Part shown: in pieces, positions 15,395 to 43,479 of the stretch
Layout: every line of letters begins with the position of its first letter
Position numbering within the stretch: the first letter of the stretch is position 1
DNA from: Gammaproteobacteria bacterium
GTDB lineage: Bacteria > Pseudomonadota > Gammaproteobacteria > Eutrophobiales > Eutrophobiaceae
Length of the DNA stretch: 63,330 nt
Direction: 5' to 3'
Assembly (NCBI GenBank): GCA_021773245.1
Contig: JAJFKK010000004.1
Location: 1 to 63,330 of the forward strand
Notes under the pieces: model-generated
The model's database searches: none
What the model saw: the letters and a program-made list of their open reading frames with translations, nothing else
What the model was told of the DNA's origin: nothing
Program-made: the position numbers and the translations under genes

Positions 15395-15402
15395 AAAAAT
15401 AG

Positions 15403-15583
15403 ATACCCGTGATATCTGGAAATGCGTGAATTTAGAGTGCTTCCGTTTTTATTCAGGGCAAGGCGCGACGATGCGCATGGCTACCCCCTGTAAAGAGGAC
15501 ACCAACAGTAGGCGCTTTAGGCGACGCCGCCATGGATAAAAAGGGGAGTGCTATAAACAGGGATTTCCAGGTATCACGGGTAT
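15403..15583. mobile_element. ERIC-like MITE (~181 bp) inserted in the 5' end of rnhA
   Basis: 21-bp terminal inverted repeats ATACCCGTGATATCTGGAAAT / ATTTCCAGGTATCACGGGTAT (1 mismatch); internal IR TTCCGTTTTTATTCA / TGGATAAAAAGGGGA. Confidence 0.85.
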
Positions 15584-17942: not shown

Positions 17943-18181
17943 TCGGTATTACCTCGGTGAGTATGTCTGGGTTATTTAATTGATTGTCGCGGATTATACC
18001 TAAAAGCGTTATCTGATCACTATCTTAGGCTAAGGTATTGATTATATTTGTCCAATACATGAAATTTTGACAGATTATCTTGTGTTTGGGGGTGTCAGCC
18101 TGTATCCAGACCAGTATAATCCCGTCCCAACATCATCTTTATATATAAGAAGTCTTTTATCATTTTTCGGGGGAATTACAT

Positions 18182-18772
18182 ATGAATCCACTTAAGTCAG
18201 TGCACGGTACGATCGCGCTTGGTTTTGTTACATCAATTATCATCATGCTTGTCGTTGATGGTGTTGGTGATTTTAATCTTTGGTCTTTTGTCGTTTGGTT
18301 GCACGTCTTTGCTGGTGTTATCTGGATTGGTCTGCTTTATTATTTTAATTTCGTTCAAGTCCCTGCTGTTGGCGTAGCTTTAGCTGATGAAGGCGGTCCT
18401 GGTCCTGCAGCGATTAATAAATATGTTGCTCCTCGAGCGTTGTGGTGGTTTCGTTGGGGTGCTTTAGCAACTTGGTTAACCGGCGCATCTGCATTGGAAG
18501 CGATGGGTGTTGGTATTAAGGATGCGTTCATGTTGCAAGACGGCGCTTTAATTATCGGTCTTGGTGCATGGATGGGAACGATCATGTTGTTTAATGTTTG
18601 GGTATTAATCTGGCCAAACCAAAAGAAAATTTTAGGTATGGTTGAAGCAACTGCCGATGAAATTGCTAAAGGTAAGGTTGTTGCATTAATGGCATCAAGA
18701 ACCAATACCTTTCTTTCTATACCCATGATCATGTGTATGGTTGGACAAGGGCATGGTGGTTTGCCACTATAA
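18182..18772 (+). CDS. PuuD / urate-oxidase-N (DUF989) family membrane protein without a cytochrome c domain
   Basis: WLHVFAGVIWIGLLYYFNF, WFRWGA..TWLTG, NVWVLIWPNQK and SRTN. Confidence 0.75.
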   Translation: MNPLKSVHGTIALGFVTSIIIMLVVDGVGDFNLWSFVVWLHVFAGVIWIGLLYYFNFVQVPAVGVALADEGGPGPAAINKYVAPRALWWFRWGALATWLTGASALEAMGVGIKDAFMLQDGALIIGLGAWMGTIMLFNVWVLIWPNQKKILGMVEATADEIAKGKVVALMASRTNTFLSIPMIMCMVGQGHGGLPL

Positions 18773-18797
18773 TATAGAATTACATTAGTTTGTTCTG

Positions 18798-18823
18798 AGC
18801 CCGGCTTGTTGCCGGGCTTTGTT
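18798..18823 (+). terminator. Intrinsic terminator
   Basis: AGCCCGGC-TTGTT-GCCGGGCT followed by TTGTT. Confidence 0.75.
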
Positions 18824-19095
18824 ATTTATAGGACGTAAAGTATGCCGCGGGTGCAGGATGCACAGGAGCGGCGATTTATAGGACGTAAAGGCAAAAAATA
18901 TGCTCCTGCATTTTTTGCACTTCCACCATCCATGGCGGTCGTATGCCGCGGGTGCAGGACGATATACATGGATGAATGAGTGTCACGAGAGGACACGATT
19001 ACAGGACGTAATCGGTAGAGTCGAGTCTGGAACAGACACCGAGGAGTCCGAAGTGACCGCACAGGAGCGGCGATTTATAGTTATAGGACGTAATC
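18824..19095. repeat. Tandem and nested array of ~50-bp two-hairpin micro-elements
   Basis: A 50-bp unit (18824-18873) is repeated from 18874. The second copy carries inserts at 18891-18941 and 18960-19057, and the latter contains 18996-19042. Confidence 0.85.
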
Positions 19096-19111
19096 AATTT
19101 TTGGTAAATAA

Positions 19112-20302
19112 ATGATGAGTAGTGCATTAATGTCAAATTATCAGCCGTTGTCGGTCGAGTTTAAAAGTGGAGCAGGTGCTTGGCTAACGGACGTCGACGG
19201 CCAGCGATATCTTGATGCATTAAGTGGAATTGCTGTCTGCGGATTAGGTCATGCGCATCCTGCTGTGCAAGAAGCTGTTGCTGATCAAGCTGGGAAATTG
19301 ATTCACACCTCAAATATTTATCGTATTCCCTTGCAAGAAAAGCTTGCTGAAAAATTAGTTGCACACTCCGGCATGGATAAAGTCTTCTTTGGTAATTCCG
19401 GTGCGGAAGCGAATGAAGCAGCAATTAAACTCGCGCGTCTTTACGGGAATAATAAGGGTGTTAGTAATCCTGTCATTGTCGTGATGGAAAAAAGTTTTCA
19501 TGGGCGAACCATGGCGACATTAACCGCAACCGGGAATGATAAGGTTAAAAAAGGTTTTGCGCCTTTAGTCGAAGGCTTTAAGCATATTCCATATAACAAT
19601 CTTAATGCCTTAAATGAAATTGCAGAGACAACAGAGAACATTGTCGCTGTTATGGTTGAACCGATATTGGGAGAGGGTGGTGTTGTTATTCCTGATGACG
19701 GATATTTGAAAGCTATACGAACATTTTGCGATGAACATGATTGTTTAATGATACTGGATGAAATTCAAACCGGTATGTGTCGAACTGGCGAATGGTTTGC
19801 CTTTCAACACGAAGATATTAAACCAGATATTATGACGTTGGCAAAAGCATTAGGTAATGGCGTGCCGATTGGTGCATGTTTAGCAAGTGGTGCAGCTGCA
19901 AATTTATTTCAACCAGGAAGTCATGGTTCTACTTTCGGTGGTAATCCTCTCGCTGCAAGAGCGGCGCTATCTGTGATTGAAGTATTAGAAGATGAAAAGC
20001 TTGACGTACGTGTAAAAGTGTTGGGAAATCGCTTGTTAGAGGGCTTTAAACAAAGTTTAAGCGGAATAAATGGAATAAAAGAGATTCGTGGTAGAGGTTT
20101 GATGTTGGGCATCGAACTTGAAAAGGATTGTACTGATTTAGTTGGTTTGGCATTAGATGAAAAGTTATTAATTAACGTTACTGCGGGTAATGTAATTCGT
20201 TTATTGCCTCCTTTGGTTATAAGTAATGATGAAGCTGATGAAATAGTGTCTAAATTATGCAGCTTGCTCATAAAATATCTGAATAGGTCTTCGCACGAAT
20301 GA
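19112..20302 (+). CDS. argD: Acetylornithine aminotransferase
   Basis: NSGAEANE, FHGRT, DEIQTG, AKALGNG and HGSTFGGNP; upstream of argF. Confidence 0.93.
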   Translation: MMSSALMSNYQPLSVEFKSGAGAWLTDVDGQRYLDALSGIAVCGLGHAHPAVQEAVADQAGKLIHTSNIYRIPLQEKLAEKLVAHSGMDKVFFGNSGAEANEAAIKLARLYGNNKGVSNPVIVVMEKSFHGRTMATLTATGNDKVKKGFAPLVEGFKHIPYNNLNALNEIAETTENIVAVMVEPILGEGGVVIPDDGYLKAIRTFCDEHDCLMILDEIQTGMCRTGEWFAFQHEDIKPDIMTLAKALGNGVPIGACLASGAAANLFQPGSHGSTFGGNPLAARAALSVIEVLEDEKLDVRVKVLGNRLLEGFKQSLSGINGIKEIRGRGLMLGIELEKDCTDLVGLALDEKLLINVTAGNVIRLLPPLVISNDEADEIVSKLCSLLIKYLNRSSHE

Positions 20303-26461: not shown

Positions 26462-26489
26462 AAAGCCCCGTTTTTACGGGGCTTTTTTT
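26462..26489 (+). terminator. Intrinsic terminator
   Basis: AAAGCCCCGT-TTTT-ACGGGGCTTTTTTT. Confidence 0.85.
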
Positions 26490-26490
26490 A

Positions 26491-26580
26491 TTTACATGGA
26501 CGTAATGTCAGGAATATTGTTCCTACACCAACAGTAGGCGCTTTAGGCGATTACTAAGTGCCTACATCCATGACATTTTG
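26491..26580. repeat. Relic of hairpin micro-elements; shares 26 bp with the rnhA MITE
   Basis: TTAC-ATGGAC-GTAA hairpin and CCTACATCCATG; 26525-26550 is identical to 15499-15524. Confidence 0.65.
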
Positions 26581-43401: not shown

Positions 43402-43479
43402 GGTCAAAAAATTGCTCCTCGGCTTTAGCTTCCCTGCGTCGCACTACCTCCTCCATCCCTGGAGTCGTACTTTTTTGCA
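43402..43479 (-). repeat. Nested hairpin micro-elements (49-bp element at 43419-43467 inside a host hairpin)
   Basis: Minus strand reads GCAAAAAAGTA[CGACTCCAGGGATGGAGGAGGTAG...GCCGA]GGAGCAATTTTTTGAC; the host resembles 18891-18918. Confidence 0.75.

What the first reader, a model, noticed from the sequence alone, without database searches (positions are those of the whole stretch)
18824..19095. Russian-doll nest of ~50-bp 'CGA / GGA-loop' two-hairpin micro-elements: candidate undescribed mobile element family
Seen in sequence: the spacer parses into four sequence-divergent units of near-equal length. A (50 bp, tandem) is CGA-TTTAT[AGGAC]GTAAA-GTAT-GCCGC..GTGCA[GGA]TGCAC..GCGG. B (18891-18941, 51 bp, minus strand) is CGA-CCGCCA[TGGA]TGGTGG-AAGT-GCAAAAAA-TGC[AGGA]GCA..TTTTTTGC. 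C (18960-19057 without D, 51 bp) is CGA-TATAC[ATGGAT]GAATG..GTCAC..GGAC[AGGA]GTCC..GTGAC. D (18996-19042, 47 bp) is CGA-TTAC[AGGAC]GTAATC-GGTAG..GTCTG[GAA]CAGAC-ACCGA. Removing D restores C. Removing B and C restores a second copy of A with one T>C difference. All start with CGA (the first A copy lacks it), and all have hairpin 1, a short linker and hairpin 2. Stems differ but stay paired, and loops stay GGA-like. There are no terminal inverted repeats or clear target duplication. Inference: conserved structure over divergent sequence, plus clean insertion, suggests ssDNA- or RNA-structure-guided mobilisation by an enzyme acting in trans (HUH/RAYT-like or reverse-transcriptase-based). No such enzyme is encoded in this window.
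Basis: partly seen in the sequence, partly recalled or inferred. Interest (0 to 1): 0.85.

Follow-up and report, generated by a model that had tools for sequence, protein, structure and literature searches.

The report
Nested tiny hairpin repeat elements
The spacer in front of this aminotransferase gene is packed with 47-51-base hairpin elements inserted one inside another, and they belong to a widespread, apparently undescribed family of tiny mobile repeats in Gammaproteobacteria.

Summary
Window 18825-19073 contains five copies of four kinds of 47-51-bp two-hairpin units. Unit D sits inside C. B and C sit inside a second copy of A, and removing them restores A with one T>C change. The same spacer in 11 same-genus genomes is 76-184 bp instead of 340, and 4 of the 11 have no unit. 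D recurs with the same ends elsewhere in this genome and in 88 places in public genomes. A strict motif for D-like units hits 42 of 401 sampled genomes of the class, while the reversed motif hits none. Stems covary while the loops stay C-ANGGAN-G. In 108 distinct contexts the units start with CG, end with CCGA, and lie between an A and a G, usually in the loop or linker of another hairpin. They have no inverted ends and no target duplication. Unit counts track REP-type tyrosine (HUH) transposase genes (genus rho 0.76; class odds ratio 4.5, control family 1.26). However, no such gene is flanked by the units, and this genome has none. Best reading: a new self-nesting variant of REP-like elements, with the mobilising enzyme unproven.

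The parts
18182..18772 (+). Upstream gene: membrane protein with a Urate_ox_N-type region
   Evidence: ORF list; Pfam PF06181, E 1.5e-15
18798..18824 (+). Terminator-like hairpin of the upstream gene (8-bp arms) plus TTTGTTA. The first unit starts directly after its last A.
   Evidence: Inverted repeat I3 at 18798-18805 / 18811-18818; sequence; conserved in all 11 orthologous spacers
18825..18874 (+). Unit A, copy 1 (50 bp, type 1): weak hairpin 1 with AGGAC loop, GTATG linker, long hairpin 2 with GGA loop, 3' CGA
   Evidence: fold z -2.7. One contig of run X3 joins 18823 to 18874, which is a one-copy variant.
18875..18890 (+). Unit A, copy 2, piece 1 (hairpin 1)
   Evidence: Exact 17-nt repeat of 18824-18840
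18891..18941 (-). Unit B (51 bp, minus strand), inserted in A2's linker just before TATG: CGA, hairpin 1 with TGGA loop, AAGTG, hairpin 2 with AGGA loop
   Evidence: fold z -4.5. B-like copies lie at C31, C88 and C132 at 88-89% identity. Minus-strand B-like units sit at the same linker position in C132 and C63.
18942..18959 (+). Unit A, copy 2, piece 2 (linker and 5' half of hairpin 2, up to GCAGGA)
   Evidence: Exact 19-nt repeat of 18840-18858
18960..18995 (+). Unit C, piece 1 (type 1), inserted in the loop of A2's hairpin 2
   Evidence: An uninterrupted C-like unit inside an A-like unit is seen in orthologous spacer L007.
18996..19042 (+). Unit D (47 bp, type 2), inserted in the loop of C's hairpin 2 (GGACA^GGAGTCC): CGA, hairpin 1, GGTAGAG, hairpin 2, CCGA
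   Evidence: Model R1 gives 60.3 bits, E 2.4e-10; fold z -3.6. Copies at C34 (97.9%) and C132 (93.6%) sit at the same site of C-like hosts. There are 88 places in public genomes.
19043..19057 (+). Unit C, piece 2
   Evidence: The fold closes C's stems around D.
19058..19073 (+). Unit A, copy 2, piece 3 (3' half of hairpin 2, ends in CGA; carries the T>C change)
   Evidence: 22-nt repeat of 18860-18881; reconstituted A2 is 97.96% identical to A1
19074..19095 (+). Remnant resembling hairpin 1 of A (TTTATAG + TTATAGGACGTAATC)
   Evidence: Direct-repeat families D1 and D2
19112..20302 (+). Downstream gene: class-III aminotransferase (argD-like)
   Evidence: ORF; Pfam PF00202, E 5.9e-119
43418..43467 (-). 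Another type-2 unit of the family elsewhere in the window, next to a hairpin-1-like stem placed right after a terminator
   Evidence: Model R1 gives 25.8 bits, E 0.0077; sequence. Hairpin 2 is weak (fold z -0.37).

Best explanation
The spacer holds members of a family of 47-51-bp non-coding, non-autonomous repeat units. They behave like very small REP-type mobile elements.

Each unit is read on one strand as: 5' CG, then hairpin 1 (variable stem, loop C-ANGGAN-G), then a short linker that begins GT(A/G), then hairpin 2 with a GGA loop, then CGA at the 3' end. The linker is GGTAGAG in D-like type-2 units, GTATG in A, and GTG in B and C.

Shown here: units lie without inverted ends or target duplication between an A and (mostly) a G. 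This site is usually in the loop or linker of an existing hairpin, which can be another unit, an ordinary GTAG-headed REP, or the spot just past a terminator's T-run. Because every unit brings new loops and linkers of this kind, later units land inside earlier ones and build the Russian doll.

Inferred: the units move as single-stranded DNA, cut and rejoined in trans by a REP-associated tyrosine (HUH, Y1) transposase. The assembly of this genome has no such gene. Its copies are therefore either relics or are moved by something not yet identified.

My odds: about 0.85 that this is a real, insertion-competent dispersed family, and about 0.4 that a RAYT-type enzyme moves it.
For: 1. Clean nesting. 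Removing the inserts restores A at 97.96% identity.

2. Empty sites. The orthologous spacer is 76-184 bp in 11 same-genus genomes, against 340 here, and 4 of the 11 have no unit. L007 has an A-like unit holding a C-like unit, without B or D.

3. Same ends elsewhere. D occurs at C34 and C132, in 88 stretches of the species-representative genomes, and in 91 aligned copies.

4. Spread. A strict motif hits 42 of 401 sampled genomes of the class (37 of 320 genera), and the reversed control hits 0.

5. Copy pattern. In the matches printed, copies within a genome are near-identical while hairpin-2 stems differ between genomes by paired changes. I read this from the listing and did not count it.

6. 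Structure under constraint. In hairpin 1, 5 of 7 pairs change on both sides. 96.6% of cells are paired, against 86.9% in shuffles (0 of 500 shuffles reach it) and 33-50% when the partners are slid.

7. Junctions in 108 distinct contexts:
- base -1 is A in 100 of 107
- the start is CGA in 68 and CGC in 30
- the end is CCGA in 104
- base +1 is G in 91

8. Insertion into loops of unrelated GTAG-headed REPs in three other genomes (L144, L147-L150, L155-L156).

9. In G000, at least 10 arrays start right after a terminator T-run.

10. Enzyme link, genus level. Model counts per genome run 0-118. The 8 genomes with a Y1 gene have a median of 45, and the 15 without have a median of 7 (Mann-Whitney p 4e-4; Spearman 0.76). 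Controls give rve 0.47, DDE_Tnp_1 0.39 and genome size 0.59.

11. Enzyme link, class level. 37 of the 42 motif-positive genomes have Y1_Tnp, against 223 of 358 others (odds ratio 4.5, p 5.5e-4). For rve the figures are 32 of 42 against 257 of 358 (odds ratio 1.26, p 0.72).

12. The genus Y1 proteins match NCBIfam 'REP-associated tyrosine transposase' at 77-82 bits, with a cut-off of 80.

13. Published work on REPs describes a GT(A/G)G head 5' of the palindrome, and cleavage by the E. coli enzyme at C|T (passages of PMC2817692 and PMC3333891). Type-2 units carry GGTAGAG before hairpin 2, and their A^G target reads C|T on the other strand.
Against: - No Y1_Tnp gene was found in G000 (96.6% complete) or in the single-contig genome G004, although they carry 23 and 8 model matches. 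In all, 15 of 23 genus genomes lack one.
- The defining arrangement, a RAYT gene flanked by its own REPs, is not met. There were 0 model matches in 34 Y1 loci (100.7 kb). In 14 genus RAYT loci holding 15 genes there were 4 matches, and only one is adjacent, lying 16 nt after a stop codon. Three of the four genus RAYT flanks I read carry GGGGTCA-type inverted repeats instead (two of them GGGGTCAGGTCTTGAAT...).
- Only one of the two junctions reads C|T. The other reads G|T.
- No excised circle was seen. The only strain-level difference seen was a one-copy versus two-copy variant of A.
- Composites such as C+D may spread as one piece, so repeated use of the same site is not fully independent evidence.
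- The correlations are not corrected for shared ancestry, and genome size itself correlates with unit count (0.59).
- Part of the conservation of hairpin 2 in my alignments is forced by the search pattern.
Confidence: 0.6

Rival explanations
1. The units are kept for a function in RNA. Each would be a two-hairpin binding module for a CsrA/Rsm dimer, acting as a decoy or regulator when transcribed in untranslated regions. The nesting would then be a by-product of how such modules multiply.
For: - Hairpin-1 loops fit the published CsrA/RsmE consensus. CANGGANG is present in 40 of 56 distinct D-type copies. The consensus sequences RUACARGGAUGU and A/U-CANGGANG-U/A come from passages of PMC4347634 and PMC6849547.
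- Each unit has two GGA loops about 25 nt apart.
- ANGGAN loops are 4-8 times more common than control loops in intergenic DNA.
- In stems, G.T pairs outnumber A.C pairs 22 to 9, which fits folding of the GGA strand.
- CsrA is present in 17 of 23 genus genomes and in 8 of 10 other carriers.
Against: - No CsrA gene was found in G000, nor in G003, which is 100% complete and has 13 units.
- Unit counts do not differ between genomes with and without CsrA (p 0.75).
- Between same-direction genes, D-type units lie 17 times co-oriented and 14 times antisense (crude ORF calls).
- Outermost units start beyond terminators.
- B is inverted inside A, and nesting splits the host's GGA loops.
- There is no match to CsrB, Rsm or any other Rfam family.
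- RNA binding does not explain the fixed CG...CCGA ends or the A^G sites.
Confidence: 0.2
2. The units are mobile, but they are moved by an enzyme other than a RAYT. Candidates would be an unrecognised recombinase or nuclease that acts on hairpin loops, or a host repair process that copies units into broken hairpin loops.
For: - Units persist in 12 genus genomes that have no Y1 gene (15 lack the gene; 3 of those have 0 matches).
- No Y1 gene is flanked by units.
- The targets are loops of many unrelated hairpins.
- D is 94-98% identical between species whose flanking genes are 72-85% identical.
Against: - No candidate gene recurs near the 88 D-type loci. The commonest neighbour clusters are protein kinases (8 loci) and ABC ATPases (6 loci).
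- RVT_1 and IS110 transposases were found only in G000 among 5 genomes searched.
- TnpB was found in 0 of 23 genus genomes.
- The Y1 association is specific when compared with rve.
Confidence: 0.25
3. No transposition takes place. The arrays would grow by local duplication, slippage and gene conversion between similar hairpin arrays, and the appearance of insertions would come from recombination between composite copies.
For: - Tandem A copies occur here and in L045.
- A one-copy variant exists in another metagenome, with 17 nt of overlap at the joint.
- The C+D composite recurs at three loci.
- Tandem and nested runs occur in L050, L065 and L085.
Against: - Single units with identical ends lie in unrelated, non-repeat contexts and in loops of unrelated REPs in several genomes.
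- A different 47-bp unit occupies the same site of a C-like host in C63.
- The conserved A / CG...CCGA / G junctions in 108 contexts are not expected from slippage.
Confidence: 0.1

Closest known systems
REP / BIME elements with REP-associated tyrosine transposases (RAYT, TnpA-REP)
   Same: - Short intergenic imperfect palindromes, mostly at the 3' ends of genes, in tens to over a hundred copies.
- A GT(A/G)G head 5' of a hairpin (GGTAGAG before hairpin 2 of type-2 units).
- Stems kept by paired changes.
- Mosaic clusters.
- Statistical association with Y1/RAYT genes.
   Different: - Each unit is two different hairpins in one orientation, not an inverted REP pair.
- Units nest inside each other's loops and linkers.
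- Loops are conserved as C-ANGGAN-G.
- Ends are fixed as CG...CCGA.
- RAYT genes are not flanked by the units.
- Many carrier genomes have no RAYT.
IS200/IS605 family and its short derivatives (palindrome-associated elements)
   Same: - No inverted ends and no target duplication.
- A hairpin near each end.
- Orientation-specific insertion 3' of a short target.
- Presumed single-strand mechanism by a Y1 HUH enzyme. The family's properties are recalled, apart from the abstracts seen.
   Different: - The units are only 47-51 bp.
- No full-length parent element with the same ends was found.
- TnpB is present in 0 of 23 genus genomes.
- The target is little more than A^G inside a loop.
Insertion sequences that target REP hairpins (IS1397-type, IS110-family such as ISPpu9)
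   Same: Insertion into REP palindromes (search listings and abstract starts of PMC1525189 and PMC12288879).
   Different: Those elements are gene-bearing insertion sequences of 1-2 kb. Here the inserted element is itself a 47-51-bp gene-less hairpin unit.
CsrB / RsmY / RsmZ sponge RNAs
   Same: Many GGA motifs displayed in hairpin loops that fit the CsrA/RsmE consensus.
   Different: - The units are dispersed at dozens of loci in both orientations.
- They have no promoter of their own and often lie past terminators.
- They match no Rfam family.
- Their numbers are independent of CsrA presence.
[quoted passage not shown]
   Same: Small, non-autonomous, intergenic, multi-copy elements.
   Different: The units have no terminal inverted repeats and no target duplication. 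A true MITE of about 170 bp with inverted ends exists in the same genome for comparison.

Membership tests
REP / RAYT system | GT(A/G)G head directly 5' of an imperfect palindrome (passages of PMC2817692 and PMC3333891) | tested here: inconclusive
   Type-2 units carry GGTAGAG, which is GTAG plus 2 nt, before hairpin 2. This holds in the window's D and in all class-wide motif matches, but that motif required it. A has GTATG, and B and C have GTG, before hairpin 2.
REP / RAYT system | The RAYT gene is flanked by two of its REPs in inverted orientation | tested here: not met
   There were 0 model R1 matches in 34 Y1 loci. One of 15 genus RAYT genes has a unit, on one side only. Three of the four genus RAYT flanks read carry GGGGTCA-type inverted repeats instead.
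REP / RAYT system | A RAYT gene is present in genomes that carry the repeats | tested here: inconclusive
   Class sample: 37 of 42 carriers have Y1_Tnp (odds ratio 4.5, p 5.5e-4; control rve 1.26). Genus: Spearman 0.76. However, none was found in G000 or G004, and 15 of 23 genus genomes lack one.
REP / RAYT system | REPs are arranged as inverted pairs (BIME / REPIN) | tested here: not met
   Units are nested or tandem and mostly co-oriented.
IS200/IS605-derived short elements | Hairpins near both ends, no inverted ends, no target duplication | tested here: met
IS200/IS605-derived short elements | Ends shared with a full-length transposase-bearing parent element | tested here: not met
   No unit was found at any of the 34 + 14 Y1 loci apart from one one-sided case. 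No recurrent transposase-like neighbour was seen in the two commonest neighbour clusters at the D loci, the only ones checked against Pfam.
IS200/IS605-derived short elements | Insertion 3' of a conserved tetra- or pentanucleotide | tested here: inconclusive
   Only base -1 (A in 100 of 107) and base +1 (G in 91 of 108) are conserved. The commonest preceding four bases are GGTA (30) and AGTA (11), which come from host linkers.
CsrB/Rsm-type sponge RNA | Several GGA motifs in hairpin loops matching the CsrA consensus | tested here: met
   CANGGANG in 40 of 56 copies; consensus
CsrB/Rsm-type sponge RNA | A discrete RNA gene matching a curated family | tested here: not met
   No Rfam match in window 18000-20000 at E up to 10, nor in 8 array-rich loci at E up to 0.1
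CsrB/Rsm-type sponge RNA | It is transcribed and binds CsrA | not testable with these tools
   No RNA run is listed for this DNA. CsrA presence does not predict unit number.
MITE | Terminal inverted repeats and a target-site duplication | tested here: not met

The most novel reading that the evidence does not exclude
These would be a self-targeting class of about 48-nt single-strand hairpin elements, the smallest mobile DNA units known. Each copy would create new landing sites (A^G in its own loops and linker). They would invade the loops of ordinary REPs and the 3' side of terminators. Their loops would double as high-affinity CsrA sites, so that their spread scatters portable CsrA-binding modules through untranslated regions of roughly a tenth of gammaproteobacterial genera.
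Probability: 0.15. Interest if true: 0.9.

Novelty: new variant of a known kind. Interest (0 to 1): 0.72.

Why it matters
How REP-like repeats spread is still an open question. This family offers unusually readable evidence on it. The units have exact ends (CG...CCGA) and a simple target (A^G in hairpin loops and linkers). The nests record the order of insertion events. Unit numbers vary between sister species from 0 to 118 and track a candidate enzyme.

If a RAYT-type enzyme moves the units, they would give a defined 47-nt substrate for studying single-strand transposition. If not, an unknown loop-targeting activity is at work. The resemblance of the loops to the optimal CsrA site also raises a testable question: do mobile repeats spread binding sites for a global RNA regulator?

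Practically, these units break short-read assemblies. The source-run contigs laid on this stretch end at 19015 and start at 19024, inside D. They also create spurious open reading frames of about 100 residues across arrays.

Tried and rejected
- Crude hairpin counts with perfect 5-bp stems, or with 4-bp stems allowing wobble pairs, showed no GGA enrichment because background hairpins dominate. I replaced them with the loop-specific count.
- Rfam gave nothing relevant in the window stretch or in 8 array-rich loci.
- Viral contigs gave 0 matches to the D pattern.
- Sequencing runs: no RNA holder is listed, so expression could not be examined. Laying contigs of 4 DNA runs gave only the one-copy A variant in X3. 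A joint at 18945/18986 looks like the C132 paralogue (my inference from the matching letters, not checked) rather than a variant of this locus. Uncovered parts are not interpreted.
- Reverse transcriptase, IS110 transposase and TnpB as mobilisers: RVT_1 and DEDD_Tnp_IS110 were each found in 1 of 5 genomes (G000 only), and TnpB in 0 of 23.
- Neighbour-gene clustering around 88 D-type loci gave no recurrent transposase-like family in the two commonest clusters, the only ones checked against Pfam.
- The CANGGANG motif upstream of 9 of 15 genus RAYT genes turned out to be their ribosome-binding site (CAAGGAAG or CAAGGAGG, 4-7 nt before the ATG), not a unit.
- Orientation of D-type units relative to neighbouring genes used crude ORF calls. 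Of 91 copies, 20 were scored 'inside an ORF', mostly spurious frames spanning arrays, and 17 lay at locus edges. I treat these numbers as rough.
- I did not build models for type-1 (A, C) or B-type units, so the class-wide figures refer to type-2 units only.
- Supplementary files of papers were not consulted. REP tables in the supplements of the RAYT papers could hold similar repeats.
- What I saw of each paper: passages found by term search in PMC4347634, PMC6849547, PMC2817692 and PMC3333891; search listings and abstract starts only for PMC1525189, PMC12288879, PMC1702495 and 10.1101/2021.07.10.451892.
- The statement that the units are not in print rests only.
- The class tallies, and the tests, include four genomes flagged unpublished (G071, G173, G327, G339). 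None is motif-positive and all four are Y1- and rve-positive. Leaving them out changes 223 of 358 to 219 of 354.
Full report
WHAT IS THERE

The window is contig C107 of a 2.73-Mb, 38.5% G+C draft genome in 183 contigs. The finding lies in the spacer between a membrane-protein gene (18182-18772, Urate_ox_N region) and a class-III aminotransferase gene (19112-20302).

After the upstream gene's terminator-like hairpin (18798-18818), the spacer reads as follows:
- A1: 18825-18874
- A2: in three pieces, 18875-18890, 18942-18959 and 19058-19073
- B: 18891-18941, minus strand, inside A2's linker
- C: 18960-18995 plus 19043-19057, inside the loop of A2's second hairpin
- D: 18996-19042, inside the loop of C's second hairpin

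Exact 17-, 19- and 22-nt repeats bracket the inserts. Slicing the inserts out restores A at 97.96% identity over 49 nt.

IT IS A DISPERSED FAMILY WITH EMPTY SITES

In 11 same-genus genomes the same spacer is 76-184 bp, against 340 here.
- Four of them (L002, L005, L006, L010) go from the terminator to the start codon with no unit.
- L004 and L011 hold one A-like unit.
- L007 holds an A-like unit with a C-like unit inside, and no B or D.

Within this genome D recurs at C34 (97.9%) and C132 (93.6%), both at the same loop position of a C-like host. In C63 a different 47-bp unit that also starts CGA and ends CGA occupies that same position. B-like units lie in minus orientation at the same linker position, just before TATG, in C132 and C63.

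A 23-nt pattern from D occurs in 88 stretches of the one-genome-per-species collection. Most are labelled as uncultured Gammaproteobacteria. It does not occur in viral contigs.

ANATOMY

In 91 D-type copies the part GGTAGAG-TCGAGTCTGGAACAGAGACCGA is constant. This is partly because the search pattern required it. Hairpin 1 has many different stems around a C-ANGGAN-G loop.

On 45 distinct copies, 5 of the 7 hairpin-1 pairs show changes on both sides. 96.6% of cells are paired, against 86.9% in shuffles (0 of 500 shuffles reach it) and 33-50% when partners are slid.

A strict motif (CANGGANG, 3-7 nt, GGTAGAG, 14-24 nt, CCGAG) is found in 42 of 401 sampled genomes of the class, covering 37 of 320 genera. 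The reversed motif is found in none. In the matches printed, copies within a genome are near-identical, while hairpin-2 stems differ between genomes by paired changes (for example CAAC/GTTG, TAAC/GTTA, TCCT/AGGA, CGGC/GCCG). I read this from the listing and did not count it.

In this genome's intergenic DNA, ANGGAN-loop hairpins number 50, against 6-13 for control loops.

WHERE THE UNITS SIT

Model R1, built on the 45 copies, finds 162 matches in 689 kb of stored loci. In 108 distinct contexts:
- the base before the unit is A in 100 of 107
- the unit starts CGA (68) or CGC (30)
- the unit ends CCGA (104)
- the next base is G in 91

The commonest hosts are the GGTA^GAG linker and the GGA loops of other units. 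Units also sit in the apical loops of ordinary GTAG-headed REPs of three other genomes (L144, L147-L150, L155-L156). In G000 the outermost unit of at least 10 arrays starts directly after a terminator's T-run plus A. There are no inverted ends and no target duplication.

This targeting explains the Russian doll. Each unit brings new loops and a new linker of the preferred kind.

WHO MOVES THEM

Candidates not supported:
- This genome has no Y1_Tnp match.
- RVT_1 and IS110 transposases are absent from four other unit-bearing genus genomes.
- TnpB is absent from all 23 genus genomes.
- No transposase-like neighbour recurs in the two commonest neighbour clusters at the 88 D loci, the only ones checked against Pfam.

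Evidence pointing to a Y1/RAYT enzyme:
- In the genus, model counts per genome run from 0 to 118. The 8 genomes with a Y1 gene hold 13-118 units with a median of 45. The 15 without hold 0-23 with a median of 7 (p 4e-4; Spearman 0.76).
- Control families correlate less: rve 0.47 and DDE_Tnp_1 0.39. The two genomes richest in insertion sequences have only 13 and 0 units. Genome size correlates at 0.59.
- In the class sample, 37 of 42 motif-positive genomes have Y1_Tnp, against 223 of 358 others (odds ratio 4.5, p 5.5e-4). For rve the figures are 32 of 42 against 257 of 358 (odds ratio 1.26, p 0.72).
- The genus Y1 proteins are RAYT-like (NCBIfam NF047646, 77-82 bits, cut-off 80).
- Published REPs have a GT(A/G)G head before the palindrome, and the E. 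coli enzyme needs that head and cuts at C|T (passages seen). Type-2 units carry GGTAGAG before hairpin 2, and their A^G target is C|T on the other strand.

Evidence against it:
- None of 34 Y1 loci holds a unit.
- Only 1 of 15 genus RAYT genes has a unit beside it.
- Three of the four genus RAYT flanks I read carry GGGGTCA-type inverted repeats instead. Relics of the GGGGTCAGGTCTTGAAT form exist in G000, and one of them is itself split by a unit array.
- The second junction reads G|T.
- The single-contig genome G004 has 8 units and no Y1 gene.

I therefore hold the RAYT mechanism at about 0.4. I hold the reading as a mobile REP-like family at about 0.85.

THE CsrA RESEMBLANCE

The hairpin-1 loop is the published optimal CsrA/RsmE site, present in 40 of 56 copies. 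Each unit has two GGA loops.

Several results argue against CsrA binding as the main reason the units exist:
- CsrA is not found in 6 of 23 genus genomes, including G000 and a 100%-complete genome with 13 units.
- Unit number does not depend on CsrA presence (p 0.75).
- Units occur in both orientations between same-direction genes (17 against 14, rough).
- Nesting splits host loops.

It remains a testable side property.

NOVELTY

No Rfam family matches. No paper in the searchable library holds the unit strings or describes nested hairpin repeats of this kind. Supplements were not searchable.

I file it as a new variant of the REP-like kind. It differs from known REPs in being two-hairpin, one-orientation and self-nesting, and in having fixed ends and conserved GGA loops.

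CAVEATS
- Counts come from draft genomes and from one unit type.
- Related genomes are not independent.
- Four unpublished genomes are included in the class tallies.

Noticed in passing
window 15395-15531, and about 24 other loci in G000 (for example C18:13679-13938, C62:4259-4487): A MITE of about 170 bp with terminal inverted repeats (TATACCCGTGATAC...). It is the most abundant intergenic repeat in this genome. Its interior also carries GGA-type hairpins.
   Followed up: partly
window 15497-15520 and 26508-26531; also C34:17200-17230, C80:9450-9475, C3:5340-5365: A 23-nt unit (CACCAACAGTAGGCGCTTTAGGCG) is present in some MITE copies and absent at the same place in others. It also occurs inside hairpin arrays. 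It looks like a still smaller inserted element with a GTAG motif.
   Followed up: no
window 26481-26575: A third hairpin array in the window starts directly after a terminator (…GGGGCTTTTTTTA) with a TTTACATGGACGTAA hairpin.
   Followed up: no
G000 C132:10500-10700, C33:12200-12450, C146:42150-42369, C13:20850-20990, C88:600-800: A repeat of about 200 bp, often near contig ends. It has two GGA-loop hairpins and a conserved GGCCAC...GTGGCC stem. It may be a larger structured element or RNA gene family.
   Followed up: no
G000 as a whole; genus genomes G003, G008, G016, G018, G032: No CsrA gene was found in 6 of 23 genus genomes, including one that is 100% complete. The other 17 have one or two copies.
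   Followed up: partly
L104-L106 and L157-L170 (RAYT loci of genus relatives): Some RAYT-like proteins carry C-terminal extensions that resemble the DNA-binding end of DnaA or a sigma-70 region (L105 and L106). Their flanks carry GGGGTCA-type inverted repeats (3 of 4 flanks read). In 9 of 15, the ribosome-binding site reads CAAGGAAG or CAAGGAGG, which is a CsrA-like site.
   Followed up: partly
L092:7763-7809 and L064:5732-5778: Two D-type units lie inside long open reading frames (about 1665 and 557 residues by crude calling). These could be insertions into coding sequence.
   Followed up: no
window 18823/18874, in run X3: A contig from a different study's sediment metagenome carries this spacer with one A copy instead of two. 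The joint has 17 nt of overlap.
   Followed up: partly
G000 C151:10880-11140: About 250 nt after a terminator hold at least 8 GGA motifs, 5 of them in hairpins, and the hairpins are not nested. This may be a candidate CsrB/Rsm-like RNA or another array.
   Followed up: no
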